32,000 nt of DNA, taken from contig CAZJUP010000007.1 in NCBI GenBank assembly GCA_964549275.1, forward strand, positions 17,633-49,632. Reading direction: 5' to 3'. How positions within the stretch are numbered: position 1 is the first letter of the stretch; each line of letters opens with the position of its first letter. Both the position numbers and the translations under genes were made by a program. The DNA comes from an uncultured bacterium. GTDB taxonomy: Bacteria; Fidelibacterota; Marinisomatia; Marinisomatales; TCS55. Under the pieces are notes generated by a model, which saw nothing but the letters and a program-made list of their open reading frames with translations, made no database searches and was not told the origin of the DNA. Shown here one piece after another: positions 4,537 to 27,700 of the stretch.

Positions 4537-5160
4537 ATGGTTCAATATTTTATAGATGGTGGTCCCTTTATGTGGCCAATATTAATTTCGCTGATCTTTG
4601 GTTTAGCTTTCGTGTTTGAACGATTTTACTCTCTCATCATGTCATCAATTAACTCCCAGAAGTTTTATGAAGACATTTCCGGGACTTTGGACAAAAACGG
4701 TGTTGATGCTGCAGTAACTTTATGCAATGAAACCCGCGGTCCGGTTGCAGAAATTTTTCACGCAGGGCTTTCAAGAACACACCGAGGACTAGACGAAGTG
4801 GAAAAAGCGGTGCAAAATGCAGGTTCCCTTGAAATGTCTTTTCTTGAAAAAAACATGATTTGGCTCAACACCGTCATTACTGTTGCACCCATGATTGGAT
4901 TCACGGGTACTGTTGTGGGAATGATTGCGGCATTTGATGCCATTAAAGCTGCGAATGATATTTCTCCTGCTGTTGTGGCCGGAGGGATTTCCCAGGCACT
5001 GCTTACTACCGCATTTGGTTTAATTACAGCAATGATTGTTCAAATCTTTCAGAACTTTTTCGTCTCAAGAATTGACAGGTTGGTCTTAGACATGGAAGAA
5101 AACTCCGTTAAATTGTTGGACCAGCTATACGAAATTGATTCTAAAAAGAACAAGAAATAA
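4537..5160 (+). CDS. exbB: MotA/TolQ/ExbB-family proton channel (ExbB-like)
   Basis: 207 aa with three TM segments and the conserved C-terminal half 'GFTGTVVGMIAAF...GISQALLTTAFGLITAMIV'. GGAGG lies 8 nt upstream of the ATG. It is followed by two ExbD genes and tonB. Confidence 0.85.
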   Translation: MVQYFIDGGPFMWPILISLIFGLAFVFERFYSLIMSSINSQKFYEDISGTLDKNGVDAAVTLCNETRGPVAEIFHAGLSRTHRGLDEVEKAVQNAGSLEMSFLEKNMIWLNTVITVAPMIGFTGTVVGMIAAFDAIKAANDISPAVVAGGISQALLTTAFGLITAMIVQIFQNFFVSRIDRLVLDMEENSVKLLDQLYEIDSKKNKK

Positions 5161-5167
5161 TTAAACC

Positions 5168-5563
5168 ATGACCGGAAAACGCAGATTTAAAGGGGGAGAG
5201 ATCCCCACCGCATCCATGGCGGATATTGCTTTTCTGCTGCTTATTTTCTTTCTTGTGACAACCACTATTGATATGGATAAGGGGTTGGGTATTGTTTTGC
5301 CGGCAGAGGGACAAGAAATTGAAATTAGCAAAAAGAATATTGTAAACTGCCTGATTAATTCCACTGGGAAGGTATTGCTTGGGGGTGAACCTGTTGAGGT
5401 CCGAAATCTTAATAAGGTTATCCGCCAAAAATTAGCTGAAAATGATAAAATGGTTATCTCCGTTAAGGCCCACGAAAAAACGCCCTACAAAGATTATATT
5501 CTTGTCATTGATCAACTAAAAATGGCTAACGCAACCCGAATTTCCATTGCGGAGACCGGATAA
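5168..5563 (+). CDS. exbD: Biopolymer transport protein ExbD/TolR
   Basis: 131 aa with the typical ExbD N-terminus 'IPTASMADIAFLLLIFFLVTT', including the conserved Asp in the TM helix. Confidence 0.85.
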   Translation: MTGKRRFKGGEIPTASMADIAFLLLIFFLVTTTIDMDKGLGIVLPAEGQEIEISKKNIVNCLINSTGKVLLGGEPVEVRNLNKVIRQKLAENDKMVISVKAHEKTPYKDYILVIDQLKMANATRISIAETG

Positions 5564-5975
5564 TATGAAAATAAAGAAAAAAACCGAAATAAGCAGTGAC
5601 ATTCCAACAGCATCTATGCCGGACATTATTTTTATGCTACTTATTTTCTTCATGGTGACAACTGTTCTTCGTGAATTTTCCGGGCTTCCCATAGATTTAC
5701 CAAAAGCAAAGCGAATTGAAAAACTTAAATCAAAGCGCCACACTTCTCACATATGGGTTTCAAAAGACGGTCTTATCTCTATCGAAGATAAGCTCTATGA
5801 GGCAGAAGCCATTAAACACATCATGTATGATAAACGTGTTGAAGATCCCCAAATAGTTATTTCTCTCAAAGCAGATGAACGAGCAAGAATGGGACTCATT
5901 TCAGAAGTACATTCGCAATTAAGAAAAGCGGATGCCCTGAAATTAAACTACTCATCGAAAACAGCTGTAGATTAA
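5547..5975 (+). CDS. exbD: Biopolymer transport protein ExbD/TolR (second paralogue)
   Basis: 142 aa with 'IPTASMPDIIFMLLIFFMVTT'. It overlaps the preceding exbD by 17 nt. Confidence 0.85.
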   Translation: MRRPDNMKIKKKTEISSDIPTASMPDIIFMLLIFFMVTTVLREFSGLPIDLPKAKRIEKLKSKRHTSHIWVSKDGLISIEDKLYEAEAIKHIMYDKRVEDPQIVISLKADERARMGLISEVHSQLRKADALKLNYSSKTAVD

Positions 5976-5984
5976 GGCAATTTT

Positions 5985-6608
5985 ATGAGATCTGAAAAAT
6001 CAGCTTCACTTAAATATTTATACCCGCTCGTGGTGCGTGCAACCGGATTGCTCGGTATTGTATTGCTTATAACAGCATTTTTGCTTTTTCCCCGGTTCGT
6101 TGCCAAAATGGAGCTGGAAGAAGAGGTGCAAATCGTTATTGAACAAATTGATATTCCACAAACGCAACAATTTGATCGCCCGCCACCCCCCTCAAGACCT
6201 TCTGTCCCCGTTGAATCTGAAAGCGAAGATATTGCAGACGATGTAACTCTGGATGAATTTTCGTTGGATGAGTTTGAATCCTGGGATGCTCCACCGCCAC
6301 CCCCAGAAGGACCCCGGGTAAAATTTATTCCCTATGATGACCCGCCACAACCTCTGAGCCCCATAAGACCGAAATATCCTGAAATTGCTCAAGAGGCTGG
6401 TATTGAAGGAACTGTTGTTGTCCAAGTTTTTGTTGATGATAAGGGGCGCGTTAAAGAAACATCTGTTTTAAAAGGGATTCCGAACACTGGATTGGACGAG
6501 GCGGCGGTTGATGCTATTCGTTCTGTTCGGTTTAAACCAGCAAAACAGCGAGAGCGACCTGTTGGAGTTTGGATATCAATTCCTGTAAACTTCAGATTAA
6601 AAAGTTGA
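5985..6608 (+). CDS. tonB: Energy transducer TonB (Pro-rich spacer plus TonB_C domain)
   Basis: 207 aa with an N-terminal TM anchor, proline-rich stretches (RPPPPSRPSVP, APPPPPEGP) and a C-terminal TonB_C-like 'YPEIAQEAGIEGTVVVQVFVDDKGRV...RFKPA'. Confidence 0.85.
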   Translation: MRSEKSASLKYLYPLVVRATGLLGIVLLITAFLLFPRFVAKMELEEEVQIVIEQIDIPQTQQFDRPPPPSRPSVPVESESEDIADDVTLDEFSLDEFESWDAPPPPPEGPRVKFIPYDDPPQPLSPIRPKYPEIAQEAGIEGTVVVQVFVDDKGRVKETSVLKGIPNTGLDEAAVDAIRSVRFKPAKQRERPVGVWISIPVNFRLKS

Positions 6609-19439: not shown

Positions 19440-19470
19440 TTAAAAAGCCCCCGAATAGGGGGCTTTTCTT
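19440..19470 (-). terminator. Rho-independent terminator after the FliG-like gene
   Basis: The minus strand reads aaaaGCCCCCtattcGGGGGCttttt. It begins about 15 nt after the stop at 19484 and lies about 26 nt upstream of the tnaA start. Confidence 0.75.
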
Positions 19471-19483
19471 TTACTCTAACGAT

Positions 19484-20416
19484 CTACTCGACCATCTCCG
19501 CCCCACCCAGCAAATCTTCCAAACGGAACGCACCATCTTTCTCCATTTGTTTGGCGGATTGAACTACTATTTTTCGGGCATTGTCAACATCTCGCTTTGG
19601 AATGGCTCCCTCTACAGGTTCATACATAGCCTGTTTTTTTTGTGGGAGATTTTCGATAACCCTCTTTGTGACCGCTTCTGGCATTCCTTTTAAAGCAAGG
19701 GCCACCGAATCCAGTTCAACTGAGTTCATGAGATCGCGCAGTAAGTTGTCCGGCATAATATCAAATATTCCTTCAAAGGTCAGATGGTATTTTTTTACTT
19801 CTTCTGCTAAATCGGGATTTTCTTGAGTAAGGTTTTTTAAAAACCGTATTTCATCTTCAGGATCCATTTCACCTAAAATATCGGCTAAATCTTTTCCTCC
19901 CCCACGAGAAAAAGATACAGTTTTTGGCAAAGATTGAGATTTCTTCTTTAATCTGTTTGCTATCTGAACAACCGCTTCTAATGGCACATCGTTTAAGTTC
20001 CCAATCTCTAACAGCACCTTCCCTTTAATTTCTTGGCGAATTCTGTTTAAAACCACCATCCGTTTTTCAGAAGACAGCTGCGCGACTGTAATGGCAATAA
20101 CCCTTGAAGATTCCGCGCTAAGCATGGCAATAGTTTGCTCATCAGTTAATTCTTCCAAAAAGGCAAATGGCTTTTTTGGTTCGTCGCTGTCCTCTTCTTG
20201 AAATTTCTCACTTACAAAGCTGAAATAAAACTCTTCCATTACCCTTTTTTTTACTGAAAAAGATACCATTTCAACACCTCTCATTGCCGATCGAATTTTA
20301 CGAACCTCGGTTTTGTCCAGGTTTTTTACTAGACTAAGAGCAAGGCTTTCTCCCAATACAGAAAAAAGAATAGCGACTTTTTGCAGTCCAGAAAGACGAT
20401 TATAATCGGTAATCAT
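19484..20416 (-). CDS. FliG-like rotor protein (three-domain FliG homologue, divergent middle-domain motif)
   Basis: 310 aa that aligns by eye along the whole of E. coli FliG. N-terminus 'LSGLQKVAILFSVLGESLALSLVKNLDKTEVRKIRSAM'; Gly-Gly hinge 'RGGGKDLADILGEMD'; 'LTFEGIFDI' at the MFxFE position; C-terminal 'LDSVALALKGMPEAVTKRVIENLPQKK...IPKRDVDNARKIVVQSAKQMEKDGAF'. AAGAGG lies 5 nt upstream of the ATG. Confidence 0.8.
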   Translation of the reverse strand: MITDYNRLSGLQKVAILFSVLGESLALSLVKNLDKTEVRKIRSAMRGVEMVSFSVKKRVMEEFYFSFVSEKFQEEDSDEPKKPFAFLEELTDEQTIAMLSAESSRVIAITVAQLSSEKRMVVLNRIRQEIKGKVLLEIGNLNDVPLEAVVQIANRLKKKSQSLPKTVSFSRGGGKDLADILGEMDPEDEIRFLKNLTQENPDLAEEVKKYHLTFEGIFDIMPDNLLRDLMNSVELDSVALALKGMPEAVTKRVIENLPQKKQAMYEPVEGAIPKRDVDNARKIVVQSAKQMEKDGAFRLEDLLGGAEMVE

Positions 20417-20425
20417 GGGGGCCTC

Positions 20426-21967
20426 TTATTTTTTCTTTTTCTTATTTTTGCCACTTTCATCTTCGGGAGCCTGTTCCGTGGGCGCTTGTTGTTCCTGTTC
20501 TGTTGGTGCTTCTTCCTGTATCCACTCTTTTACAATCTTTTGTGCTGCAGAGGGTTGACCTACGCTCATTGAGACTACCGCCTGCTTCATATCATTAACC
20601 TCGCTTTGGAGAACAGCAATATCTTCTTTGCTTGGTGGACTTTGAACAGCTTCATCAGGCTTTTTTACGGATTTTTTTGTTCCGTTATCACTTTTTTTTT
20701 TCGGTCGAGGTGGATACATCCAAGGTGGTGGAGGCATCATTTGTTGCTTTGGTTTATTCATTAACACAAAAGCAAGGACGACAATCAAGACAATAACCAG
20801 AGCCCCCAACACAGCAATAAAAATGATCATCGCGGTATTTCCGGAACCACCTTGCCGATCTAAGTCCTCCTGTACTGTTTCTAACATAGCTAATTTTTCA
20901 GCAATTTGCTGATCAAGATTTGATTTTTCACCAAGTTTTTTCTGAATTGAAGATTCGGCCTCCGTTACAGCTGAATCGGAAACACCCCCCGCGCCTAAAA
21001 ATGCTTTTAAATTCTGAATTTCTTCATTAAGTGCATTTAATCGAACGGAGTCTCCCCTTAAAATATCCTGCTTTTGCTGTTCATAGGCTCTATCCCTTGC
21101 GCTAGATTCCAACTCTGTTAGTTTTGATTGAAAATACAGGCGATCTTCTTGGCGACGGTCTGCTTCTTCCTGTTTGTAATTTGCCAACTCCTCCTTCCAA
21201 TCGACTTCTCCCAGACGTTCTCTCTGTGTTTCCAGAGACTCGAGTTTTTCTGCAATGCTTTTTAATAAAACTTGTTCTGCGGTTTTTTCATCGCGCCTTT
21301 CCTTAAAAGAGGCTGTCATTATACTAAGCACATCTCCTCGAGCGCGGTTAAACCTTGAAGCAACCATCACGACCTGACGAATATTTTCAATCAGCTCTGG
21401 AGCTGCACCTTCTTGTAGAATAATACTGATCTCTATGTTGCGTATCTTTGCCAAAGCCGGATGTTTTTCTGTGTGTGTTCGAGACAATACATTGTCACTA
21501 GACCATCCGGATTCTATTTTGTTTTCTATATCATTACTTGAAACAGGTTCTTCTAAAGGTCTTGAATCTTCAGTATCAAAATCAAACCCAGGTATGGGAA
21601 GTCCAACACCAGACGAAGGAAGGATGTTTTGACCCTCTTTGCTTGTAGATTCTAACTTGCTGGCATCTAATTCATAATCTGATGGGGTCGGCGCTCCGGA
21701 TTTAAAGGTGGTTTGCTCTTCTACTGCACTGCTGAGTTCGAGGTCCACACTAACATCTACTACATATTTTCTGTTGTCAATTATTTTTTCGAGAGCATCT
21801 GTAATGCGTTTCCGCAGGCTGTTTTCAACCATTAATTTTTGTGCAAGATACCCTCCGGATTGTCCCCATCCAATGCCGATAATCATTATGAAAGTTAGAG
21901 CGGTTATAATTGCTCTTTTAATCCGCATTATCATATAAACTCCCTTATTCATTCTCAGAGGAATCAT
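20426..21967 (-). CDS. FliF-like bitopic ring protein: TM1, single RBM3-like module, long coiled coil, TM2, cytoplasmic tail
   Basis: 513 aa. TM1 is about aa 17-35. 'VENSLRKRITDALEKIIDNRKYVVDVSVDLEL' and 'IRNIEISIILQEGAAPELIENIRQVVMVASRFNRARGDVLSIMTASF' resemble the two halves of FliF RBM3. A heptad-rich, E/K/Q-rich segment spans about aa 222-372, and TM2 is about aa 378-404. The tail 'QPSAAQKIVKEWIQEE' resembles the FliF C-terminal FliG-binding helix. The start forms an ATGA overlap with the motB stop. Confidence 0.65.
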   Translation of the reverse strand: MIPLRMNKGVYMIMRIKRAIITALTFIMIIGIGWGQSGGYLAQKLMVENSLRKRITDALEKIIDNRKYVVDVSVDLELSSAVEEQTTFKSGAPTPSDYELDASKLESTSKEGQNILPSSGVGLPIPGFDFDTEDSRPLEEPVSSNDIENKIESGWSSDNVLSRTHTEKHPALAKIRNIEISIILQEGAAPELIENIRQVVMVASRFNRARGDVLSIMTASFKERRDEKTAEQVLLKSIAEKLESLETQRERLGEVDWKEELANYKQEEADRRQEDRLYFQSKLTELESSARDRAYEQQKQDILRGDSVRLNALNEEIQNLKAFLGAGGVSDSAVTEAESSIQKKLGEKSNLDQQIAEKLAMLETVQEDLDRQGGSGNTAMIIFIAVLGALVIVLIVVLAFVLMNKPKQQMMPPPPWMYPPRPKKKSDNGTKKSVKKPDEAVQSPPSKEDIAVLQSEVNDMKQAVVSMSVGQPSAAQKIVKEWIQEEAPTEQEQQAPTEQAPEDESGKNKKKKK

Positions 21968-22770
21968 CCTCGTTTTTTCTTTCTTTTAGTATTCTGAACT
22001 TCGGATTCAGAAACACCAACGGGTCCACCCCGGGGTGCTAAAAATGTAATTTCTACTCTTCGATTTCTCGCTTTTTGTTCTGCAGTCTGGTTATATTTTT
22101 GAATCAATTCTGGGGTGATTATTTCAGCTGTACTTTTATCTCTTGGGACAAACTCACCATAACCAACCGCTTCTAATCTAGTCGGAGAAATTCCCAATGA
22201 AATCAGTAGCCTTACCACAGCTGCGGCCCTGGCTCCTGACAACTCCCAATTGCTCGGATATTTTACCCTTAATGCCTTGGGAAGGGGATCGCTGTCTGTG
22301 TGGCCTTCTATGGCTACTAAAAAATGAGAGGCCTGTATTGTGGGAACCAACTTTTTTAAAATTTCTAAAAAGGTTGGTTTTGTTTCCGCGGAGCCAGATC
22401 TGAAACTTATATCCGACGAAATTCCAATTGTCACCCCTTTGGGTCCCGTCGAAACTTCAACAGGTTTTTCACCTGTTTTGGGGTCTGCCTCCATTTTTTT
22501 AACCATTTGTTCAGCCGCTTTCTTAATATCAGATAATGACATCGCCTGGCTGTCTTTTTTAATTTTACTTCCAACAGATTTTCCCATTGAATCTGCCATC
22601 TCCTGCAGTTTTACAGGATCGATCGTAGAGATAGCTGCAAGCAAAACAAAAAAGGCAAACAGGAGAGTCATCATATCAGCAAAAGTTCCAAACCACCCCG
22701 GAAGCCCTTCATCGACCTCTTGCATTCCCATTTCCAAAAATTTCTTTTTTTCCTGTGGTGTTACTGCCAT
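21964..22770 (-). CDS. motB: Flagellar-type stator protein MotB (OmpA-like peptidoglycan-binding C-terminus)
   Basis: 268 aa. The N-terminal TM segment carries the conserved Asp ('WFGTFADMMTLLFAFFVLLAA'). The C-terminal OmpA/MotB motif is 'IEGHTDSDP...SNWELSGARAAAVVRLL...LEAVGYGEFVP'. Confidence 0.88.
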   Translation of the reverse strand: MAVTPQEKKKFLEMGMQEVDEGLPGWFGTFADMMTLLFAFFVLLAAISTIDPVKLQEMADSMGKSVGSKIKKDSQAMSLSDIKKAAEQMVKKMEADPKTGEKPVEVSTGPKGVTIGISSDISFRSGSAETKPTFLEILKKLVPTIQASHFLVAIEGHTDSDPLPKALRVKYPSNWELSGARAAAVVRLLISLGISPTRLEAVGYGEFVPRDKSTAEIITPELIQKYNQTAEQKARNRRVEITFLAPRGGPVGVSESEVQNTKRKKKRG

Positions 22771-22775
22771 TCAGA

Positions 22776-23564
22776 TTAGCTCTCGTCTTTTTTCCATTCT
22801 TTTGGCGGAATGTATGAGTTTAATTTTTCTCTGACAATTATTGGGTGTTTCTTCTGATGAATCAAACGAGAAGCTTCTACAAGCATGTTTTGCATCGTGC
22901 TTGTAAAGGTAATCCGAGTTCTGAGTTTATCCGCCATGGGGAGAAAAAACAGATTAGCAAACACCGCTCCATAAAATGTGGTGATTAATGCTGCTGACAT
23001 TCCAGATCCCAATGCTTCCGTTCCACCTCCATCTCCACCAAATCCTGAAAGCATGATAACAAGCCCGATAAGTGTTCCTATCATTCCCCAGGCAGGCGCC
23101 ATAACCCCCATGGATTTAAACAGGCTTGCCTGTGTTTTTTCGCGGACTTCTCTATAATCAATTCTTGTGTATAAAATTTCTGTTAGTTCCTCAAGAGAGT
23201 ATCCATCTACCACCATTTGAACCCCATCCCTAAAAAACGGATTTTTAACGGTATCAATCGATTTTTCAAGTTCAGCAGCCCCTTTTCTCCCTACTTCTGA
23301 TACAGCAACAGCATCTTCCACAACTGTTCCTAAAGTCAATTTACTTCCTTTAAAGACAGCTGCCATTGCCGATCCAAGCTTTAAGACATCCGACAAAGGA
23401 AAAGCCACAGATACAGAGGCAACCATCCCACCAAAGACAATGGCAAAACTAGAAGGAGATAAAAATCCTCCCATTCCCGCGCCAGCTGCAGTTGCGGCCA
23501 ACCAAATCCCCCCTCCAATAGAGCCTAAACCAAGAACAATTCCAATCAGGGTTGCAATATCCAT
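22776..23564 (-). CDS. motA: Flagellar-type stator protein MotA/PomA
   Basis: 262 aa that is collinear with my recollection of Vibrio PomA. 'MDIATLIGIVLGLGSI', cytoplasmic loop 'VGRKGAAELEKSID' (equivalents of the charged R/E), and the conserved prolines in 'VMAPAWGMIGTLIGLV' and 'LFFLPMADKL'. GAGGA lies 6 nt upstream of the ATG. Confidence 0.9.
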   Translation of the reverse strand: MDIATLIGIVLGLGSIGGGIWLAATAAGAGMGGFLSPSSFAIVFGGMVASVSVAFPLSDVLKLGSAMAAVFKGSKLTLGTVVEDAVAVSEVGRKGAAELEKSIDTVKNPFFRDGVQMVVDGYSLEELTEILYTRIDYREVREKTQASLFKSMGVMAPAWGMIGTLIGLVIMLSGFGGDGGGTEALGSGMSAALITTFYGAVFANLFFLPMADKLRTRITFTSTMQNMLVEASRLIHQKKHPIIVREKLNSYIPPKEWKKDES

Positions 23565-23566
23565 AT

Positions 23567-24949
23567 CTAATCCTCAATAAAACTGGTAGATTTTAATCGA
23601 TTTTCGTGCAATGCCTTTAATACATTGCGAACATCATCATATTCCGGATCCATGCGTAAGGCAAGGTTCCAATTAATTGTAGCGCGCTGAATATCTCCCA
23701 ACTTGTAATAAATGGACCCTCTCCTTGCATAGGCTAATGCCAAATTTGGATTAAGGTCCAATGCTGCCTCTACAGATTCTAAAGCGCCACGATAGTCACC
23801 GGCATAAAAATAGCGAAGGGATCTTGATAAATGCCGCATGGCATCATTCATATTTTTTTCGCTTACATTCCGATTTAGCTTCACGGCTTTCAATGAATCT
23901 TCTAAAAACTTTGAATGCTGCTCCATTGCGGCAAGCCGAGTCATGAGATTGCGCATTTCGTTTGTCATCATTCCCATGGAGTCTCGCAACGTGTGAACAG
24001 CAACATCTGCCATAAGGAGCGTTGAGTCCATATCTGCTGGATAGCCTCCTGCTGAGCGCGTTCCGGGAAGAACTAGCCCCGGCTGTTCGGGTGTTGGTGC
24101 CGGCCCACCGCCAGGGAGACGACGAAGAGATGCTCCCCTTGGAACCGACATATCCATGCCCAAGGTGATTCCCGGATGTCCTTTCCAATAACGAGAGTTC
24201 CATGAAGGTAATTTTTCTATGTGGGTGAACCCAAGGTTCAGGCGGTAATCCGAGGTAAGGGGGATGCGGAGTCCCACATTGATACCTGTACCATCGAATT
24301 CACCCACAATATCTATTCCACCCCATTTTTCAAAATAAGGTGTGTTAACAATAACCCCCGCAAAAACGCCGGCTCTGGTACCAGAGGAACTGCTCGTATC
24401 TGCTACAGATAATGTATCAGCCGCTCCAAAGCCCCCAGTTCCAAAGCCAATAAACGTATTCATGTCATATTGACCGAGTTTTTTCTCACTATTCACAACA
24501 CCGAAAAACGACAATTCTTTCGGGTCAAGTCTTAATCCGCTTGTGCCCGCATTTTCAAAAACAATATCCTGCAACCCAACAGAAAAGGAGACGTCATTAT
24601 ATATAAACACCCGTTGTTGAAAATGGAACCCAAACTCAACCGGTGCCCTATAGGTTGACACTTCAAGGTTTGCAAGGGAGGTTGTGTCTGCACCCTGAAT
24701 AGATGAAAAACCGAAAATTGTATTTTTCCCGAACTCCATATTGAAGTACGCACCCTTGGCTGTGTTAAAGGGAGCCATATTATGAATTTCCGAACCAAAC
24801 CCCACCCTGAACAAATATGGCGACTTAGACACTGAGCTAAACGGAATTCTCATCATAGGACCAGGTCGAGTATAAGCGACCCGGGTTGCGCTAAATCCTA
24901 CAGAGGATAAAGAAATTATTATAATTACGAATACAAAAAATCGTTTCAT
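23567..24949 (-). CDS. Secreted beta-rich domain protein with Pro/Gly linker, helical segment and C-terminal TPR repeats
   Basis: 460 aa with signal peptide MKRFFVFVIIIISLSSVGFSA. The N-terminal ~250 aa is Gly/Phe/Thr-rich with alternating patterns (possible beta-barrel). Linker 'LPGGGPAPTPEQPGLVLPG', then TPR-like 'YFYAGDYRGALESVEAALDLNPNLALAYARRGSIYYKLGDIQRATINWNLALRMDPEY'. Confidence 0.6.
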   Translation of the reverse strand: MKRFFVFVIIIISLSSVGFSATRVAYTRPGPMMRIPFSSVSKSPYLFRVGFGSEIHNMAPFNTAKGAYFNMEFGKNTIFGFSSIQGADTTSLANLEVSTYRAPVEFGFHFQQRVFIYNDVSFSVGLQDIVFENAGTSGLRLDPKELSFFGVVNSEKKLGQYDMNTFIGFGTGGFGAADTLSVADTSSSSGTRAGVFAGVIVNTPYFEKWGGIDIVGEFDGTGINVGLRIPLTSDYRLNLGFTHIEKLPSWNSRYWKGHPGITLGMDMSVPRGASLRRLPGGGPAPTPEQPGLVLPGTRSAGGYPADMDSTLLMADVAVHTLRDSMGMMTNEMRNLMTRLAAMEQHSKFLEDSLKAVKLNRNVSEKNMNDAMRHLSRSLRYFYAGDYRGALESVEAALDLNPNLALAYARRGSIYYKLGDIQRATINWNLALRMDPEYDDVRNVLKALHENRLKSTSFIED

Positions 24950-25851
24950 GGCATGACTTCTGCTTTTTTTATTTCCATTTGTGCTAATCGCACATATTCA
25001 CTTGCGGGATGCTGATTCACAATACTGGAGAAAGCATTAAGCGCCTTTGTTTCCATTCCCATTTTTCTATAAAGTAGGCCTTTTTGAACAATGGCGTCCA
25101 CAGTTCTTTCTGCCCCATCCTCTTCAATCCTCTTCAACAGAGACAAAGAAGATGAATAGTCTCCGATCTGCTGGTAGGCATCGGCCATCCAATAGCGAAT
25201 GTTCTCGGCTGTTTTCTTTGGAGCTAAATCAAGACTTAATTGATTAAACTTATCCAATGCGCTTTCAAAGTCTTCCCTTTGATACGCAAAAACTCCTGAC
25301 ATATATAACGACGAATCAAAAAGCCTGGCTGGAGTTCTGGTGTTTTTGACTTCAACAACATCCAGATTGTGACCTATTGGTTTTTCTGGTTTTTTCTGTT
25401 TAGGCTGCAGGATTATTTCTTTATCCACAGCCAAATCAGCTGAACTGTCCGTTTTTTGGTTTTTTGGAGGGTTTTTTTGAAGAGCAACAAGAGATTTTCG
25501 AAGTTCAGTGTTTTCGATTTTTAACTCTTTCATTTCTTTTCGAAAAGATGTTTCAAGTAGTTCAATTCGACGATTAATCCTTTCAAGGGCTCCTATCATT
25601 TCTTTTGAGGACGCCATATATACTGAGCCGCTTTCCACCTTTTTAACACGGAAATTAACCTCTTCTGATGTCGGTTTAATTACACGAGAGTAGGTGACTT
25701 TTTCATCCACCGGTTCGATAACAATACCCAAATCCAAAAAAAATATATCAGAAATTGGAGCCGGTTCAGTTTGGGTAAAAACAGCGCCGAAAAGCGCAAA
25801 CCCGACAACGGATTTTATCCAGGGTTTACAACTTAAGGCTACTTTACCCAT
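24946..25851 (-). CDS. CpoB/YbgF-like periplasmic protein (N-terminal coiled coil plus C-terminal TPR)
   Basis: 301 aa with a signal/anchor segment. Coiled coil 'LERINRRIELLETSFRKEMKELKIENTELRKSLVALQ', a Lys/Pro-rich spacer, then TPR-like 'AYQREDFESALDKFNQL...IRYWMADAYQQIGDYSSSLSLL...NQHPASEYVRLAQMEI'. This architecture matches the Tol-Pal accessory protein CpoB. ATGA overlap with the downstream gene. Confidence 0.55.
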   Translation of the reverse strand: MGKVALSCKPWIKSVVGFALFGAVFTQTEPAPISDIFFLDLGIVIEPVDEKVTYSRVIKPTSEEVNFRVKKVESGSVYMASSKEMIGALERINRRIELLETSFRKEMKELKIENTELRKSLVALQKNPPKNQKTDSSADLAVDKEIILQPKQKKPEKPIGHNLDVVEVKNTRTPARLFDSSLYMSGVFAYQREDFESALDKFNQLSLDLAPKKTAENIRYWMADAYQQIGDYSSSLSLLKRIEEDGAERTVDAIVQKGLLYRKMGMETKALNAFSSIVNQHPASEYVRLAQMEIKKAEVMP

Positions 25852-26993
25852 TATTCATATTCCTCCCAATCAATGACATAAGAATATCCAATAAATGACC
25901 CAAAATCGTGGGGTACATATAATTCAAATGCACCAGATGCGCCCGGGAGTAACGTGGCATCAGTTGTTATACCTGAATCAAATGTGTGATACCCTCCTCT
26001 GATAAATGTTGTTAGTGTCTTAGTCTCTCCGCTCCAGTTTGTTCTAAATACGAAATCTACTTTCACAAAATCTGCTCTTCGGCCACCAATGTTTTTTATT
26101 TCACCTGTAAAAACAACATTCCCCTGAGCGTCTTTCTTTTCACTTATATTTCCGACTAAGACACAGTTTGCAGAATATTTTTTGGTTCCGGATTTTTCTG
26201 AGGCTGTCGAGGTATATTTCGGCTCTGCGAGCTTTGGCATTGGGGGCGGTGTATAGCTATCGCGAACCTGTTCGGGTACATATTCCTGCTGTTCTTCGGT
26301 AACAACATTATCAATTATTCGAACAATATCTTTTCGCTGGATAATTAAATACCCCACCAGCGTTTCGACTTTTAGCGATTCCTCGTCTTGGTATACCACT
26401 TTTCCAAACACCGTGGACCCGTTTTTAAGGATAATCTCTTTTGAATAAATCGCCAGGGGGTTAACCCACATTTTACTTAATGCTTTTAGGTTTTCAAGTT
26501 CCTCGTTAAGATATTTTAACTCTGCGGTCATTTTTTTAACCTCAAAACTGAGTTCATTTAAAACATAGTCTTTCCCCGGGTCAGGTTTAAATTCAATATC
26601 CTCCGGACCTGGGCCTTCAACGTTTACTGTATCTGTTGATACATTAGTAGTAGATTGTTCTAGCCCTAATACTACTTCTCCCAGTTTTACATTATCGTCA
26701 ACCACTTCAAGGGGAAGGTGAACTTTTCCTGATTCACCTGCGTCAGATTCAATAATATATTTTCCGGGAAGTACTTTTTTAAATTCAAATTTGCCACCAC
26801 CCCGGCCTAACCGTTTTTTTGACGATTCGGTCCTCTGCGCTTCTGTTCCGTCTTCCTTCAACAGCAGCACGGCTGTTTTTGCAACACCCTTGCCCTTTTC
26901 ATCGATCAGTTGTCCTGAAACTTTGAAGGAATCCTTAGCAAATATATTAGATACAAATACGGTGAGGGCCACCACATATAATATTCTTTTCAT
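25851..26993 (-). CDS. Secreted protein with N-terminal CarboxypepD_reg-like beta-sandwich, coiled coil and C-terminal beta-sandwich-like domain
   Basis: 380 aa with signal peptide MKRILYVVALTVFVSNIFA. 'FKVSGQLIDEKGKGVAKTAVLLLKEDG...KFEFKKVLPGKYIIES' resembles the carboxypeptidase-regulatory-like fold. A short coiled coil is 'VKKMTAELKYLNEELENLKAL'. The C-terminal part is 'VFTGEIKNIGGRRADFVKVDFVF...GAFELYVP'. TAATG overlap with the downstream gene. Confidence 0.55.
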   Translation of the reverse strand: MKRILYVVALTVFVSNIFAKDSFKVSGQLIDEKGKGVAKTAVLLLKEDGTEAQRTESSKKRLGRGGGKFEFKKVLPGKYIIESDAGESGKVHLPLEVVDDNVKLGEVVLGLEQSTTNVSTDTVNVEGPGPEDIEFKPDPGKDYVLNELSFEVKKMTAELKYLNEELENLKALSKMWVNPLAIYSKEIILKNGSTVFGKVVYQDEESLKVETLVGYLIIQRKDIVRIIDNVVTEEQQEYVPEQVRDSYTPPPMPKLAEPKYTSTASEKSGTKKYSANCVLVGNISEKKDAQGNVVFTGEIKNIGGRRADFVKVDFVFRTNWSGETKTLTTFIRGGYHTFDSGITTDATLLPGASGAFELYVPHDFGSFIGYSYVIDWEEYE

Positions 26994-27142: not shown

Positions 27143-27700
27143 CTATTTCCAAAAATCTTCAAATGTTTTTTTTCGCCGAAGAAGCACACTTCTCTCTGCT
27201 TCAACGCGCTGTCTCAATGTGTCCGATAAGGTGCGTTGAAGAGCTTTATCATAGGATTCTAAAGCCAGTTCAAAATCTGAATCATCTTTTTTTTCATAAC
27301 ACTTAGCCATCCAATAGTGGGGTTCTCCGGCAGTATCAATTGCTGTGGCAGCTTGACCAAAACAAACCAAAGCTTCCCATTGGGCATTTTTATAGTTTTT
27401 TTGTAATAACCGGTGACCATCTATCATAGCAAGTTCATATCGTGCCACGGTGTTTTTGGGGTCCAACTTGAGGACTTTTTTATACTCAAACTCGGCGCCT
27501 ATGGAAGTTTTCGCTAAATTTAAATGAGCAGTAACTAAAGCAGATTTCAGTTCTGCATCACCAGGGCGTTTTGCCAATAAGGAATCTTCTGCCGCAACCA
27601 ATAGGGCGGGATCTTTCTTTGCCATCACCATGGGTGACGGGGCACACCCGAAGATAATAACAATGACCAATAAACCCAAAAAATTGTGCTTATTTAGCAT
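27143..27700 (-). CDS. Lipoprotein with TPR-like repeats
   Basis: 185 aa with signal plus lipobox-like 'LLVIVIIFGC'. TPR-like helices 'YKKVLKLDPKNTVARYELAMIDG', 'HYWMAKCYEKKDDSDFELALESYDKALQ'. Confidence 0.6.
   Translation of the reverse strand: MLNKHNFLGLLVIVIIFGCAPSPMVMAKKDPALLVAAEDSLLAKRPGDAELKSALVTAHLNLAKTSIGAEFEYKKVLKLDPKNTVARYELAMIDGHRLLQKNYKNAQWEALVCFGQAATAIDTAGEPHYWMAKCYEKKDDSDFELALESYDKALQRTLSDTLRQRVEAERSVLLRRKKTFEDFWK

What the first reader, a model, noticed from the sequence alone, without database searches (positions are those of the whole stretch)
20426..21967. Cut-down FliF: only an RBM3-like ring module, no RBM1/RBM2
Directly after TM1 the protein reads 'VENSLRKRITDALEKIIDNRKYVVDVSVDLEL', which I align to Salmonella FliF 'VESRIQRRIEAILSPIVGNGNVHAQVTAQLDF'. 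About 100 residues later comes 'IRNIEISIIL...IENIRQVVMVASRFNRARGDVLSIMTASF', aligned to '...IERLSVAVVVNY...IEDLTREAMGFSDKRGDTLNVVNSPF'. These are the two halves of RBM3 split by a beta-collar-like insert. The roughly 170 residues that form RBM1 and RBM2 in FliF, and that house the type III export gate, have no counterpart here. This fits a ring that never docks an export apparatus. The cytoplasmic tail 'QPSAAQKIVKEWIQEE' mirrors the FliF C-terminal helix ('PRVVALVIRQWM') that inserts into FliG-N.
Basis: partly seen in the sequence, partly recalled or inferred. Interest (0 to 1): 0.8.

Follow-up and report, generated by a model that had tools for sequence, protein, structure and literature searches.

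The report
Minimal FliF ring in non-flagellar motor
This gene encodes a stripped-down relative of the flagellar base ring protein FliF, and it sits in an eight-gene cluster with stator (MotA/MotB) and rotor (FliG) proteins that is kept throughout the marine phylum Marinimicrobia, which suggests a flagellar-type rotary motor used for something other than a flagellum.

Summary
ORF 20426-21967 (-) is a real gene under strong purifying selection.

**What the protein contains**
- Its only recognisable globular domain is a FliF RBM3 ring module (Pfam PF08345, E 1.3e-9). A profile-profile comparison with canonical FliF gives 98.9% probability. Foldseek's top 18 PDB hits are all FliF S-rings.
- RBM1 and RBM2 (PF01514) are absent in 28 of 28 family members.
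- The C-terminal tail aligns with the FliG-binding end of FliF, with the invariant Pro and Trp in register.

- The "TM1" looks like a cleavable signal peptide.
- A coiled coil of about 145 residues, absent from canonical FliF, separates RBM3 from the single clear membrane helix.
- The gene is the seventh of a strictly syntenic eight-gene operon: lipoprotein, β-sandwich protein, two TPR proteins, MotA, MotB, FliF-like, FliG-like. This order is kept in about 80 species-level Marinimicrobia genomes and in subfamilies only 23-30% identical.

**State of the motor parts**
- Stator and rotor torque residues are conserved.
- The FliM-binding EHPQR motif of FliG is not.

**Best reading:** the rotor ring of a non-flagellar, proton-driven rotary machine.

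**Still open:** what the machine does, whether the protein forms rings, whether the tail binds FliG, and whether other flagellar genes are absent genome-wide. No prior description was found.

The parts
20426..21967 (-). FliF-like gene, longest ORF of 513 aa. The probable true start is M12 at 21934, giving 502 aa.
   Evidence: ORF list. The ATG at 21967 overlaps the motB stop as ATGA. AAGGGAG lies 5 nt upstream of the ATG at 21934. M12 is invariant in 20 homologues.
21863..21934 (-). N-terminal hydrophobic segment (aa 12-35): probably a cleavable Sec signal peptide, alternatively TM1.
   Evidence: Position -1 is G/A/S in 28/28 diverse members. Position +1 is Gln in 27/28. The uncharged stretch has a median of 14-17 aa and the n-region is basic.
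21704..21859 (-). RBM3 first half (aa 37-88): helix, then two β-strands.
   Evidence: AlphaFold pLDDT above 90. Aligns to FliF columns from about 235. Co-linear phmmer hit to Vibrio FliF residues 269-324.
21482..21703 (-). Variable low-complexity insert at the β-collar position (aa 89-162). It contains the conserved LPIPGF motif (aa 123-128, nt 21584-21601).
   Evidence: pLDDT below 50. Length and sequence vary across the family, except that P126 is invariant and G127 nearly so. LPIPGF aligns to canonical NIPGY.
21302..21481 (-). RBM3 second half (aa 163-222): β-β-α-β, including the motif IENIRQV...RGDVLSIMTASF.
   Evidence: pLDDT above 90. R197, G211, D212 and F221 are invariant. Aligns to canonical ...IR.AV..A.G.D..RGDQ..VES..F.
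20855..21289 (-). Periplasmic coiled-coil region (aa 227-371) with no counterpart in canonical FliF. It has a conserved motif (DSxRLxxLxxEIxxLK) before a loop at aa 324-332 that tolerates insertions.
   Evidence: Helices at 227-254, 257-323 and 332-371, with pLDDT above 90 for aa 260-320. Present in all subfamilies. Not covered by the hhalign match to FliF.
20759..20836 (-). Transmembrane helix (aa 378-403), the one unambiguous membrane anchor.
   Evidence: Kyte-Doolittle windows of 1.6 or more over aa 373-408. Predicted helix 378-403.
20630..20758 (-). Cytoplasmic Pro/Lys-rich linker (aa 404-446), including PPPPWMYPPRPKKK.
   Evidence: Read directly from the sequence. pLDDT below 50. PPW.YPP is conserved within the close family.
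20510..20629 (-). Cytoplasmic two-helix tail (aa 447-486), homologous to the FliG-binding C-terminus of FliF. W482 is invariant.
   Evidence: Helices 447-467 and 472-486. hhalign against canonical FliF C-termini gives probability 80.5%, P 1.3e-5. Co-linear with the Vibrio FliF C-terminus.
20429..20509 (-). Acidic/Pro-rich segment ending in a poly-Lys tail (aa 487-513).
   Evidence: Read directly from the sequence. The poly-K is conserved in the close subfamily only.
19484..20416 (-). FliG-like rotor protein (310 aa), with N, M and C domains.
   Evidence: PF14842, PF14841 and PF01706. 1e-20 to T. maritima FliG, with ESSR in place of EHPQ. Charged residues K260, K261, E266, E269, K274 and R275 are conserved.
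21964..22770 (-). MotB-type stator subunit (plug, Asp32, OmpA-type peptidoglycan-binding domain).
   Evidence: PF13677 and PF00691. PDB MotB/PomB hits. D32 is invariant in 75 orthologues.
22776..23564 (-). MotA/PomA-type stator subunit.
   Evidence: PF01618. 2.5e-38 to a solved MotA. R93, K94 and E100 are invariant; I read them as the counterparts of E. coli R90 and E98.
23567..24949 (-). Exported protein of 460 aa: signal peptide, conserved β-rich N-terminal domain of unknown fold, coiled coil, C-terminal TPR.
   Evidence: Syntenic in all loci that have enough flanking sequence.
24946..25851 (-). TPR protein of 301 aa, YbgF/BamD-like, with a weak FlcA (spirochaete collar) hit.
   Evidence: Synteny.
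25851..26993 (-). Exported protein of 380 aa: CarboxypepD_reg-like β-sandwich, coiled coil, and a highly conserved C-terminal domain.
27143..27700 (-). Small TPR-like lipoprotein (185 aa, lipobox IFGC), the first gene of the conserved cluster.
   Evidence: Synteny.
19442..19468 (-). Intrinsic terminator that closes the operon 16 nt after the fliG-like stop codon.
   Evidence: 11-bp stem with 6 GC pairs, followed by a T-run.

Best explanation
The gene encodes a FliF-derived ring protein cut down to one ring-building module.

**Domain order of the mature protein (inferred)**
1. A periplasmic RBM3 domain with a variable loop at the β-collar position.
2. A coiled coil of about 145 residues.
3. One transmembrane helix.
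4. A cytoplasmic two-helix tail like the one through which FliF binds FliG-N.

**Proposed mechanism**
- Many copies assemble through RBM3 into a ring. This is inferred from homology to the 33/34-mer S-ring.
- Their tails recruit the FliG-like protein encoded by the next gene into a cytoplasmic ring (inferred).
- The co-transcribed MotA/MotB stators are anchored to peptidoglycan and driven by proton or sodium flux through the conserved MotB Asp32. They push on the conserved charged ridge of FliG-C and turn the ring (inferred).
- There is no housing for a type III export gate, because RBM1/2 are absent (shown).
- There is no FliM docking motif (shown).
- No rod, hook or filament genes lie nearby (shown for the window, which covers 19-kb and 10-kb flanks; gene calls within about 10 kb for six related loci also list none).
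- Motion would therefore pass through the coiled-coil and RBM3 assembly to the four exported TPR, β-sandwich and lipoprotein partners of the operon. Some of these may instead scaffold the stators, as PflA/PflB and FlcA do in other motors.

**What it drives.** This is unknown. Retention across the whole phylum, including small pelagic genomes, argues for a core envelope or surface function rather than swimming.
For: **The domain is FliF RBM3**
- Pfam and TIGRFAM matches.
- hhalign 98.9%, E 2.4e-17.
- Foldseek top 18 hits are all FliF S-rings.
- No PF01514 in 28 of 28 members.

**The tail resembles the FliG-binding end of FliF**
- Profile match with Pro and Trp in register.
- W482 is invariant across sequences only 23% identical.

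**The operon is tight**
- 4-nt and 1-nt overlaps between genes.
- A terminator directly after the fliG-like gene.

**The cluster is conserved**
- Strict synteny of all eight genes in the 80 species-level genomes examined, out of 168 with a hit.
- The core MotA-MotB-FliF-like-FliG order is kept wherever the contig extends far enough, in four subfamilies 23-30% identical.

**Functional residues are kept**
- MotB D32.
- MotA R93 and E100.
- The FliG charged ridge.

**Selection is purifying:** dN/dS about 0.05-0.07 for six of the genes.

**Other support**
- All four accessory proteins carry export signals.
- The only cultured member of the phylum is non-motile (PMC11652737).
Against: - No whole genome could be scanned, so a full flagellar gene set elsewhere is not excluded.
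- Ring formation, tail-FliG binding and rotation are all inferred from homology. None was modelled or measured.
- The FliG torque helix is three residues shorter than in T. maritima and contains a conserved Pro. The stator interface may therefore differ.
- The full-length model is poor (pLDDT 57). The coiled-coil geometry, hairpin or extended stalk, is unknown.
- It is unresolved whether the N-terminus is cleaved, and this changes where the RBM3 ring sits.
- No output component can be named.
Confidence: 0.6

Rival explanations
1. This is an ordinary but divergent FliF of a true flagellum. The remaining flagellar genes (export gate, rod, hook, filament, FliM/N) lie elsewhere in the genome, and another protein takes over the RBM1/2 functions.
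For: - All four core proteins are homologous to flagellar motor parts.
- Whole genomes could not be inspected.
- Annotation pipelines label the proteins FliF/FliG.
Against: - RBM1/2 are absent in every member, and TIGR00206 scores 22.9 against a cut-off of 129.75.
- The FliG-like protein lacks EHPQR and falls below the FliG equivalog cut-off.
- No flagellar gene lies in the window, and none appears in the gene calls within about 10 kb for six related loci.
- The cluster instead always carries four non-flagellar exported proteins.
- A phmmer search of 1.84 billion representatives finds a closed family of 104 proteins. Nearly all of the full-length ones have the cut-down architecture, many hits are short fragments, and only one looks like a canonical FliF.
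- The cultured phylum member is non-motile.
Confidence: 0.07
2. This is a decaying remnant of an ancestral flagellum with no present function.
For: - It is a reduced set of flagellar genes in a lineage not known to swim.
Against: - dN/dS is about 0.05-0.07 for FliF-like, FliG, MotA, MotB and two accessory genes.
- Reading frames are intact and synteny is strict in 80 species.
- Catalytic and interface residues are invariant.
- The cluster is retained across deep subfamilies.
Confidence: 0.02
3. This is an energised but non-rotary envelope system. MotAB works like TolQR or ExbBD, transmitting proton-motive force through a periplasm-spanning partner to outer-membrane TPR and lipoprotein components. 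The partner here is the coiled coil of the FliF-like protein. The role would be envelope integrity, division or transport, with FliG acting as an adaptor rather than a spinning ring.
For: - The accessory TPR proteins weakly resemble YbgF/CpoB and BamD.
- A long periplasmic coiled coil recalls TolA and TonB-type spanners.
- Phylum-wide retention suggests a housekeeping role.
Against: - MotA and MotB are of the flagellar stator type, not the TolQ/ExbB type: 1e-38 to a solved MotA, a plug domain, and conserved counterparts of R90 and E98 that exist to engage FliG.
- RBM3 is a ring-building module.
- A separate ExbB-ExbD-ExbD-TonB set exists in the same window.
- All solved 5:2 motors of this superfamily rotate, to my knowledge of the MotAB, ExbBD and GldLM structures. 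The two views therefore overlap.
Confidence: 0.2
4. This is the motor of a surface-motility or secretion device, such as gliding or energising type IX secretion, analogous to GldLM. The RBM3/coiled-coil assembly would serve as the periplasmic drive shaft.
For: - SAR406 genomes carry many type IX-type C-terminal sorting-domain proteins (PMC5596340).
- The accessory proteins are exported, and one gives a weak GltC hit.
- If the signal peptide is cleaved, the coiled coil could place the RBM3 ring up to about 20 nm from the inner membrane. This follows from helix lengths of 28, 67 and 40 residues.
Against: - No type IX or gliding gene lies in the cluster or its flanks.
- The presence or absence of GldL/M in these genomes was not tested.
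- The cultured relative is reported non-motile.
Confidence: 0.1

Closest known systems
FliF, flagellar MS-ring protein (TIGR00206; Salmonella and Vibrio structures 6SD1, 8T8P, 8Z5V)
   Same: - RBM3 fold and sequence profile.
- An insert at the β-collar position with a shared (L/N)(P/I)PG(F/Y) motif.
- A membrane helix after the periplasmic part.
- A C-terminal two-helix tail with invariant Pro and Trp, as in the FliG-binding end.
- Encoded directly upstream of a fliG-like gene.
   Different: - No RBM1/RBM2 (PF01514).
- The N-terminal segment looks like a cleaved signal peptide rather than TM1.
- A coiled coil of about 145 aa lies between RBM3 and the membrane helix.
- Far below the FliF equivalog cut-off.
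- Not next to fliE or fliH/I, and no export-gate genes nearby.
- The insert is low-complexity and variable rather than a recognisable β-collar.
SctJ/YscJ/PrgK inner-membrane ring of injectisomes
   Same: - Overall topology if the signal peptide is cleaved: a processed N-terminus, a periplasmic ring-building domain, a C-terminal membrane helix and a short cytoplasmic tail.
   Different: - SctJ has RBM1 and RBM2 (PF01514) and a lipobox, and it lacks RBM3.
- Here the situation is the reverse.
- The Foldseek match to PrgK is only E 0.22.
SpoIIIAG sporulation-channel ring protein
   Same: - A protein whose only ring-forming element is a single RBM with a β insertion, used outside flagella and injectisomes.
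   Different: - SpoIIIAG was not among the Foldseek hits.
- It has no FliG-binding tail and no MotAB/FliG partners.
- It belongs to a Firmicutes sporulation context.
Flagellar stator-rotor core: MotA5B2 stators acting on the FliG ring
   Same: - MotB Asp32, plug and OmpA domain.
- MotA Arg and Glu counterparts of R90 and E98.
- Three-domain FliG with a conserved charged ridge.
   Different: - No FliM/FliN.
- The EHPQR motif is lost.
- The FliG torque helix is shortened and contains a conserved Pro.
- No axial rod to turn.
Periplasmic stator scaffolds made of TPR proteins (PflA/PflB in Campylobacter and Helicobacter, FlcA in Borrelia)
   Same: - TPR proteins encoded with motAB.
- A weak FlcA C-terminal hit for the 301-aa protein.
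   Different: - No demonstrated homology beyond the TPR repeats.
- Those scaffolds decorate complete flagella.
GldLM/PorLM and Tol-Pal/ExbBD-TonB: non-flagellar machines driven by 5:2 motors
   Same: - The concept: an ion-driven inner-membrane motor that passes energy across the periplasm through an elongated partner.
   Different: - Those motors act directly on a shaft or spanner protein and use no FliG or FliF-type large rotor ring.
- The stator here is of the true MotAB class.

Membership tests
FliF (MS-ring protein, TIGR00206) | RBM3 ring-building domain (PF08345) | tested here: met
   PF08345 E 1.3e-9 and present in 26/28 family members. hhalign 98.9%. Foldseek top 18 hits are all FliF S-rings.
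FliF (MS-ring protein, TIGR00206) | RBM1 and RBM2 (PF01514), which form the M-ring and house the export gate | tested here: not met
   No PF01514 in 28/28 members, against 120/120 canonical FliFs. Only about 26 family columns precede the region that aligns to FliF column 235.
FliF (MS-ring protein, TIGR00206) | Score above the curated equivalog cut-off | tested here: not met
   22.9 bits against a cut-off of 129.75.
FliF (MS-ring protein, TIGR00206) | Two transmembrane helices flanking the periplasmic region | tested here: inconclusive
   The C-terminal helix at aa 378-403 is clear. The N-terminal segment has signal-peptide features: G/A/S at -1, Gln at +1, and a short h-region. No dedicated signal-peptide predictor was available.
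FliF (MS-ring protein, TIGR00206) | C-terminal FliG-binding helices with a conserved Trp | tested here: met
   Sequence-level only. hhalign of the tails gives probability 80.5%, P 1.3e-5, with Pro and Trp aligned. W482 is invariant. Physical binding was not tested.
FliF (MS-ring protein, TIGR00206) | Assembly into a ring of about 33-34 subunits | not testable with these tools
FliF (MS-ring protein, TIGR00206) | Genomic association with flagellar type III export, rod and hook genes | tested here: not met
   None in the 32-kb window. The genes placed within about 10 kb in 80 related loci were cluster members or three non-flagellar neighbours. Gene calls for six further loci list no other flagellar Pfam family. 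Genome-wide absence could not be tested.
SctJ/YscJ (injectisome inner ring) | PF01514 RBM1-RBM2 and an N-terminal lipobox | tested here: not met
   No PF01514. There is no Cys at the cleavage site. PrgK is only at E 0.22 by Foldseek.
SpoIIIAG-type ring protein | Closest fold match and sporulation operon context | tested here: not met
   Not among the 50 best Foldseek PDB matches. The context is MotAB/FliG.
Flagellar-type stator MotA/MotB (partner genes) | MotB TM Asp, plug and peptidoglycan-binding domain; MotA cytoplasmic Arg and Glu that contact FliG | tested here: met
   PF13677, PF00691 and PF01618. D32, R93, K94 and E100 are invariant in 74-75 orthologues. 2.5e-38 to a solved MotA.
FliG (partner gene, TIGR00207) | N, M and C domains with a charged torque helix | tested here: met
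   PF14842, PF14841 and PF01706. K260, K261, E266, E269, K274 and R275 are conserved. The helix is 3 residues shorter than in T. maritima and contains Pro.
FliG (partner gene, TIGR00207) | EHPQR motif for FliM binding, and a score above the equivalog cut-off | tested here: not met
   ESSR replaces EHPQ. 106.5 bits against a cut-off of 226.7.

The most novel reading that the evidence does not exclude
Marinimicrobia carry a free-standing rotary motor built from flagellar rotor and stator homologues. It consists of a FliF-RBM3 ring, a FliG ring and MotAB. It has never been coupled to a type III export apparatus, or is no longer coupled to one, and it has no filament. It would be the first non-flagellar machine known to use the FliF/FliG rotor. 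It is either a surviving relative of the pre-flagellar motor module or a repurposed one, and it would drive an unknown process at the periplasm or outer membrane through a coiled-coil 'drive shaft' and TPR partners.
Probability: 0.45. Interest if true: 0.9.

Novelty: new variant of a known kind. Interest (0 to 1): 0.78.

Why it matters
**Why a specialist would care**
- To my knowledge, every FliF/FliG rotor described so far belongs to a flagellum.
- The origin of the flagellar motor is debated. One question is whether the secretion core or the torque module came first. Another is how stators of the ExbBD/TolQR type came to act on a large ring.
- This cluster is conserved across a phylum and under purifying selection. 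It has the rotor ring, FliG and MotAB. It lacks the export-gate housing and the switch-complex docking motif, and no rod genes lie within about 10 kb.
- It therefore offers a natural minimal rotor-stator system in which to study those questions.
- It would also add a new entry to the short list of things bacteria do with rotary motors.

**Wider relevance**
- The host phylum (SAR406/Marinimicrobia) is among the most abundant in the dark ocean and in oxygen-minimum zones. A core envelope machine of unknown function there has ecological weight.

**Practical point**
- Surveys that use fliG or motA HMMs as motility markers (for example PMC10359470) will score these non-flagellar genes as motility.

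Tried and rejected
**Searches and models that gave little**
- Single-sequence and profile searches of PDB sequences gave only weak FliF hits (E 0.008-0.02). Profile-profile and fold comparison were needed.
- The full-length AlphaFold model with a shallow alignment was poor in RBM3 (pLDDT 57). It was replaced by a domain model with a diverse alignment.
- The search for related loci with the most diverse alignment failed for lack of a conserved stretch. It was repeated with a narrower alignment.
- PDB sequence searches of the 460-aa and 380-aa accessory proteins gave only generic TPR hits or nothing.

**Tests that could not be run**

**Literature**
- Six searches for a known non-flagellar FliF/FliG/MotAB module or for Marinimicrobia flagella found nothing relevant. 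Two Marinimicrobia genome papers said nothing about the cluster.
- The Bacteroidetes Q-rule was considered as an explanation for the invariant Gln36. It was dropped as a firm argument, because the source paper says the rule does not extend to the whole FCB group, and the other exported proteins of the operon lack Gln at +1.

**Alternative identities considered**
- Zorya-type defence was considered and dismissed. MotA here is 262 aa, of the flagellar class, and paired with FliG. This rests on my knowledge of ZorA length; PADLOC was not run.

**Taxonomy**
- Cluster look-ups returned few names for the distant subfamilies. Where names exist they are Marinimicrobia, Fidelibacterota or 'Calditrichaeota' MAG labels.
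Full report
**1. What is at the coordinates**

The window's minus strand carries a 513-aa ORF at 20426..21967. The first ATG overlaps the stop of the upstream motB-like gene as ATGA. An AAGGGAG sequence sits 5 nt before the ATG of Met12 at 21934, and Met12 is invariant in homologues. The protein therefore probably starts at Met12.

Base composition is even at about 40% GC. The neighbours are housekeeping genes: a succinate dehydrogenase/fumarate reductase-type complex, PPDK, γ-glutamyl enzymes, and an ExbB-ExbD-ExbD-TonB set.

**2. The domain is FliF RBM3 and nothing else of FliF's periplasmic part**

- Pfam finds only PF08345 (YscJ_FliF_C), covering aa 59-221 against the full profile (E 1.3e-9).
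- TIGR00206 fliF aligns aa 44-235 to profile positions 241-448 of 555, far below the family cut-off.
- Plain sequence searches of PDB chains give only weak hits to Vibrio FliF. The three pieces are co-linear: 47-101 to 269-324, 193-231 to 423-461, and the tail to 483-578.
- A 28-sequence alignment of the family (A2, down to 23% identity) against 24 canonical FliFs (A6) gives hhalign probability 98.9%, E 2.4e-17. Family columns 27-233 align to FliF columns 235-410. About 234 FliF columns (TM1, RBM1, RBM2) therefore face about 26 columns here.
- PF01514 is absent from all 28 members. It is present in all 120 canonical FliFs retrieved.
- An AlphaFold model of aa 36-240 built on a diverse alignment has a confident core (pLDDT above 90). 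Its order is α-β-β, then a disordered stretch, then β-β-α-β.
- Foldseek against the PDB returns 18 hits with E 3e-8 to 1.5e-6. All are FliF RBM3/S-ring entries from Salmonella and Vibrio. The next hit is at E 0.065, and PrgK appears only at E 0.22.

**3. The insert**

The two RBM3 halves are separated by aa 89-162. This is the position of the β-collar in FliF.

Across the family the stretch varies from about 70 to about 150 residues. It is rich in Pro, Glu, Ser and Thr, and it is modelled with pLDDT below 50. One motif, LPIPGF, is nearly invariant. In the profile alignment it falls on the canonical FliF motif NIPGY.

The insert is therefore homologous in position and in one motif. Whether it forms a collar is open.

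**4.

(a) The N-terminal hydrophobic segment has the hallmarks of a cleavable Sec signal peptide:
- The n-region is basic.
- The uncharged stretch has a median of only 14-17 residues.
- Some members have Lys or Arg two to four residues before its end.
- Position -1 is G, A or S in 28 of 28 diverse members.
- Position +1 is Gln in 27 of 28.

The Bacteroidetes Q-rule is not known to extend to this phylum (PMC5837995). I therefore treat cleavage as likely but unproven.

(b) Between RBM3 and the one unambiguous membrane helix (aa 378-403) lie three long helices, at aa 227-254, 257-323 and 332-371. pLDDT exceeds 90 for aa 260-320. Canonical FliF has only a short linker there, and the hhalign match stops at the end of RBM3. 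A conserved motif (DSxRLxxLxxEIxxLK) precedes a loop at aa 324-332 that tolerates insertions.

The geometry depends on cleavage, and both versions are inference:
- If the signal peptide is cleaved, the helices could hold the RBM3 ring up to about 20 nm from the inner membrane.
- If it is not cleaved, they must fold back as a hairpin crown.

**5. The tail**

After a Pro/Lys-rich linker come two predicted helices, aa 447-467 and 472-486. They contain the most conserved cytoplasmic residues of the family. Trp482 is invariant.

Aligning only the C-termini of the family (A7) and of canonical FliFs (A8) gives probability 80.5%, P 1.3e-5. 'SMSVGQP..A..I.K.WL' falls on 'LA.EKP..A.LIK.WL.EE', so the invariant Pro and Trp coincide. 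This is the segment that binds FliG-N in flagella, according to my knowledge of the FliF-FliG co-crystal structures. Binding itself was not tested here.

**6. Context**

On the minus strand the gene is the seventh of eight tightly packed genes:

| Order | Coordinates | Product |
|---|---|---|
| 1 | 27143-27700 | Small TPR-like lipoprotein |
| 2 | 25851-26993 | Exported β-sandwich/coiled-coil protein |
| 3 | 24946-25851 | TPR protein |
| 4 | 23567-24949 | Exported protein with a β-rich domain, coiled coil and TPR |
| 5 | 22776-23564 | MotA |
| 6 | 21964-22770 | MotB |
| 7 | 20426-21967 | FliF-like protein |
| 8 | 19484-20416 | FliG-like protein with N, M and C domains |

A strong terminator follows at 19442-19468.

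- MotA and MotB are of the flagellar stator class (2.5e-38 and 6e-23 to solved stators).
- In 74-80 orthologues, MotB Asp32 is invariant, and so are MotA Arg93, Lys94 and Glu100. I read the MotA residues as the counterparts of E. coli Arg90 and Glu98. FliG Lys260, Lys261, Glu266, Glu269, Lys274 and Arg275 are conserved.
- The FliG-like protein has ESSR where flagellar FliG has the FliM-binding EHPQ. Its torque helix is three residues shorter than in T. maritima and contains a conserved Pro.

**7. Distribution and selection**

- The closest homologues are all labelled Marinimicrobia, Neomarinimicrobiota or Fidelibacterota MAGs and single-cell genomes.
- A scan of one genome per species found relatives in 168 genomes. 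The 80 retrieved are all from this phylum, or are labelled only 'uncultured bacterium' or 'FCB group bacterium'.
- In every locus with enough flanking sequence the eight genes occur in the same order.
- An exhaustive phmmer search of 1.84 billion representatives with aa 1-240 found only 104 proteins. Many are short fragments. Nearly all the full-length ones have the domain starting within about 25 residues of the N-terminus, and only one looks like a canonical FliF.
- Four deep subfamilies (23-30% identity) were examined. Two have MotA-MotB-FliF-like-FliG preceded by three TPR genes and a gene of about 330 aa. The other two sit on short contigs that show only part of the core.
- Where named, these subfamilies are again Marinimicrobia, Fidelibacterota or 'Calditrichaeota' MAGs.
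- dN/dS is about 0.05-0.07 for six of the genes. Synonymous sites are near saturation, so the values are rough.
- The one cultured member of the phylum is non-motile (PMC11652737). I could not check whether it has the cluster.

**8. Most likely mechanism**

Shown:
- An RBM3 ring-building fold.
- A FliF-type tail next to a FliG-like gene.
- Intact stator and rotor charge residues.
- Exported accessory proteins.
- Strong selection and strict synteny.
- No RBM1/2 and no EHPQR.
- No neighbouring flagellar genes.

Inferred:
- The protein forms a ring whose tails template a FliG ring.
- MotAB units anchored to peptidoglycan turn that ring using ion flow.
- The coiled-coil and RBM3 assembly carries the motion to the TPR, β-sandwich and lipoprotein partners. 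Alternatively, some of those partners form a stator cage like PflA/PflB or FlcA.
- With no FliM/FliN, the motor would not switch direction.

The output is unknown. My confidence that this is the rotor ring of a non-flagellar MotAB/FliG machine is about 0.6.

Rivals:
- A Tol- or Ton-like energised spanner (0.2, and partly overlapping with the main reading).
- A gliding or type IX drive (0.1).
- A divergent true flagellar FliF (0.07).
- A decaying relic (0.02).

**9. Comparison with known systems**

It works most like the flagellar rotor-stator core. It is not a FliF by the family's own definition, because RBM1/2 and the equivalog score both fail. The FliG-like protein likewise fails the FliG equivalog cut-off.

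In topology it may be closer to SctJ, with a processed N-terminus, a ring domain, a C-terminal TM and a tail. However, it carries the opposite set of RBMs.

Like SpoIIIAG, it is a single-RBM ring protein used outside flagella. It is nevertheless much closer to FliF, and it is linked to a motor.

**10. Novelty and limits**

NCBI already auto-names some members 'FliF C-terminal domain-containing protein', so the domain hit is not new.

I found no paper describing the cut-down architecture, the coiled coil, or the conserved cluster of MotAB, FliG and TPR genes. The library lacks most subscription journals.

The main gaps are four:
- No whole-genome check for other flagellar genes.
- No oligomer or complex prediction.
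- N-terminal processing is unresolved.
- No clue to the output.

I rate it a new variant of a known kind, with interest 0.78.

Noticed in passing
window 21863-21934 (aa 12-35 of the FliF-like protein): The supposed TM1 has signal-peptide features across the family: a small residue at -1 in 28/28 members, Gln at +1 in 27/28, and a short h-region. If it is cleaved, the protein has one membrane helix and the RBM3 ring is tethered only through the coiled coil.
   Followed up: partly
window 20855-21289 (aa 227-371): A periplasmic coiled coil of about 145 residues, absent from canonical FliF. A conserved motif precedes a loop at aa 324-332, and two subfamily members carry insertions of about 40 aa in that loop.
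   Followed up: partly
window 21584-21601 (LPIPGF, aa 123-128): This is the only conserved motif in the variable insert. It aligns with the NIPGY motif of the collar region of canonical FliF. Its role is unknown in either protein.
   Followed up: partly
window 20429-20470 and 21967-21990: Both the FliF-like protein (…GKNKKKKK) and MotB (…NTKRKKKRG) end in poly-basic tails. In the FliF-like protein the tail is preceded by an acidic/Pro-rich stretch and is conserved only in the close subfamily.
   Followed up: no
window 19442-19468: A strong bidirectional intrinsic terminator (11-bp stem, 6 GC pairs) separates the fliG-like gene from the downstream tryptophanase-like gene. It defines the 3' end of the operon.
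   Followed up: yes
window 4537-6608 (+): A separate ExbB-ExbD-ExbD-TonB cluster. The organism therefore has a conventional Ton-type 5:2 motor in addition to the MotAB pair.
   Followed up: partly
window 23567-24949 (-), aa 22-290: The 460-aa TPR protein has a highly conserved, β-rich N-terminal domain. It matches no Pfam or NCBIfam family and no PDB sequence. It may be a domain associated with the outer membrane or peptidoglycan.
   Followed up: partly
window 25851-26993 (-), aa 170-380: The 380-aa exported protein has very strongly conserved central and C-terminal regions, including GAFELYVP and a WEEYE end. These match only small Leptospira-named NCBIfam domains weakly (NF047433, NF047624).
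   Followed up: no
window 19484-20416 (-): The FliG-like protein would be scored as 'fliG' by HMM-based motility surveys. One oxygen-minimum-zone MAG study uses fliG as a motility marker (PMC10359470). Marinisomatota may therefore be mis-scored as motile.
   Followed up: no
L001, L006, L024 and other related loci: Beyond the eight genes, an Smr-domain gene and a phenylalanine-hydroxylase-like gene upstream, and a tryptophanase-like gene downstream, recur in many but not all genomes. This is probably conserved neighbourhood rather than part of the system.
   Followed up: partly
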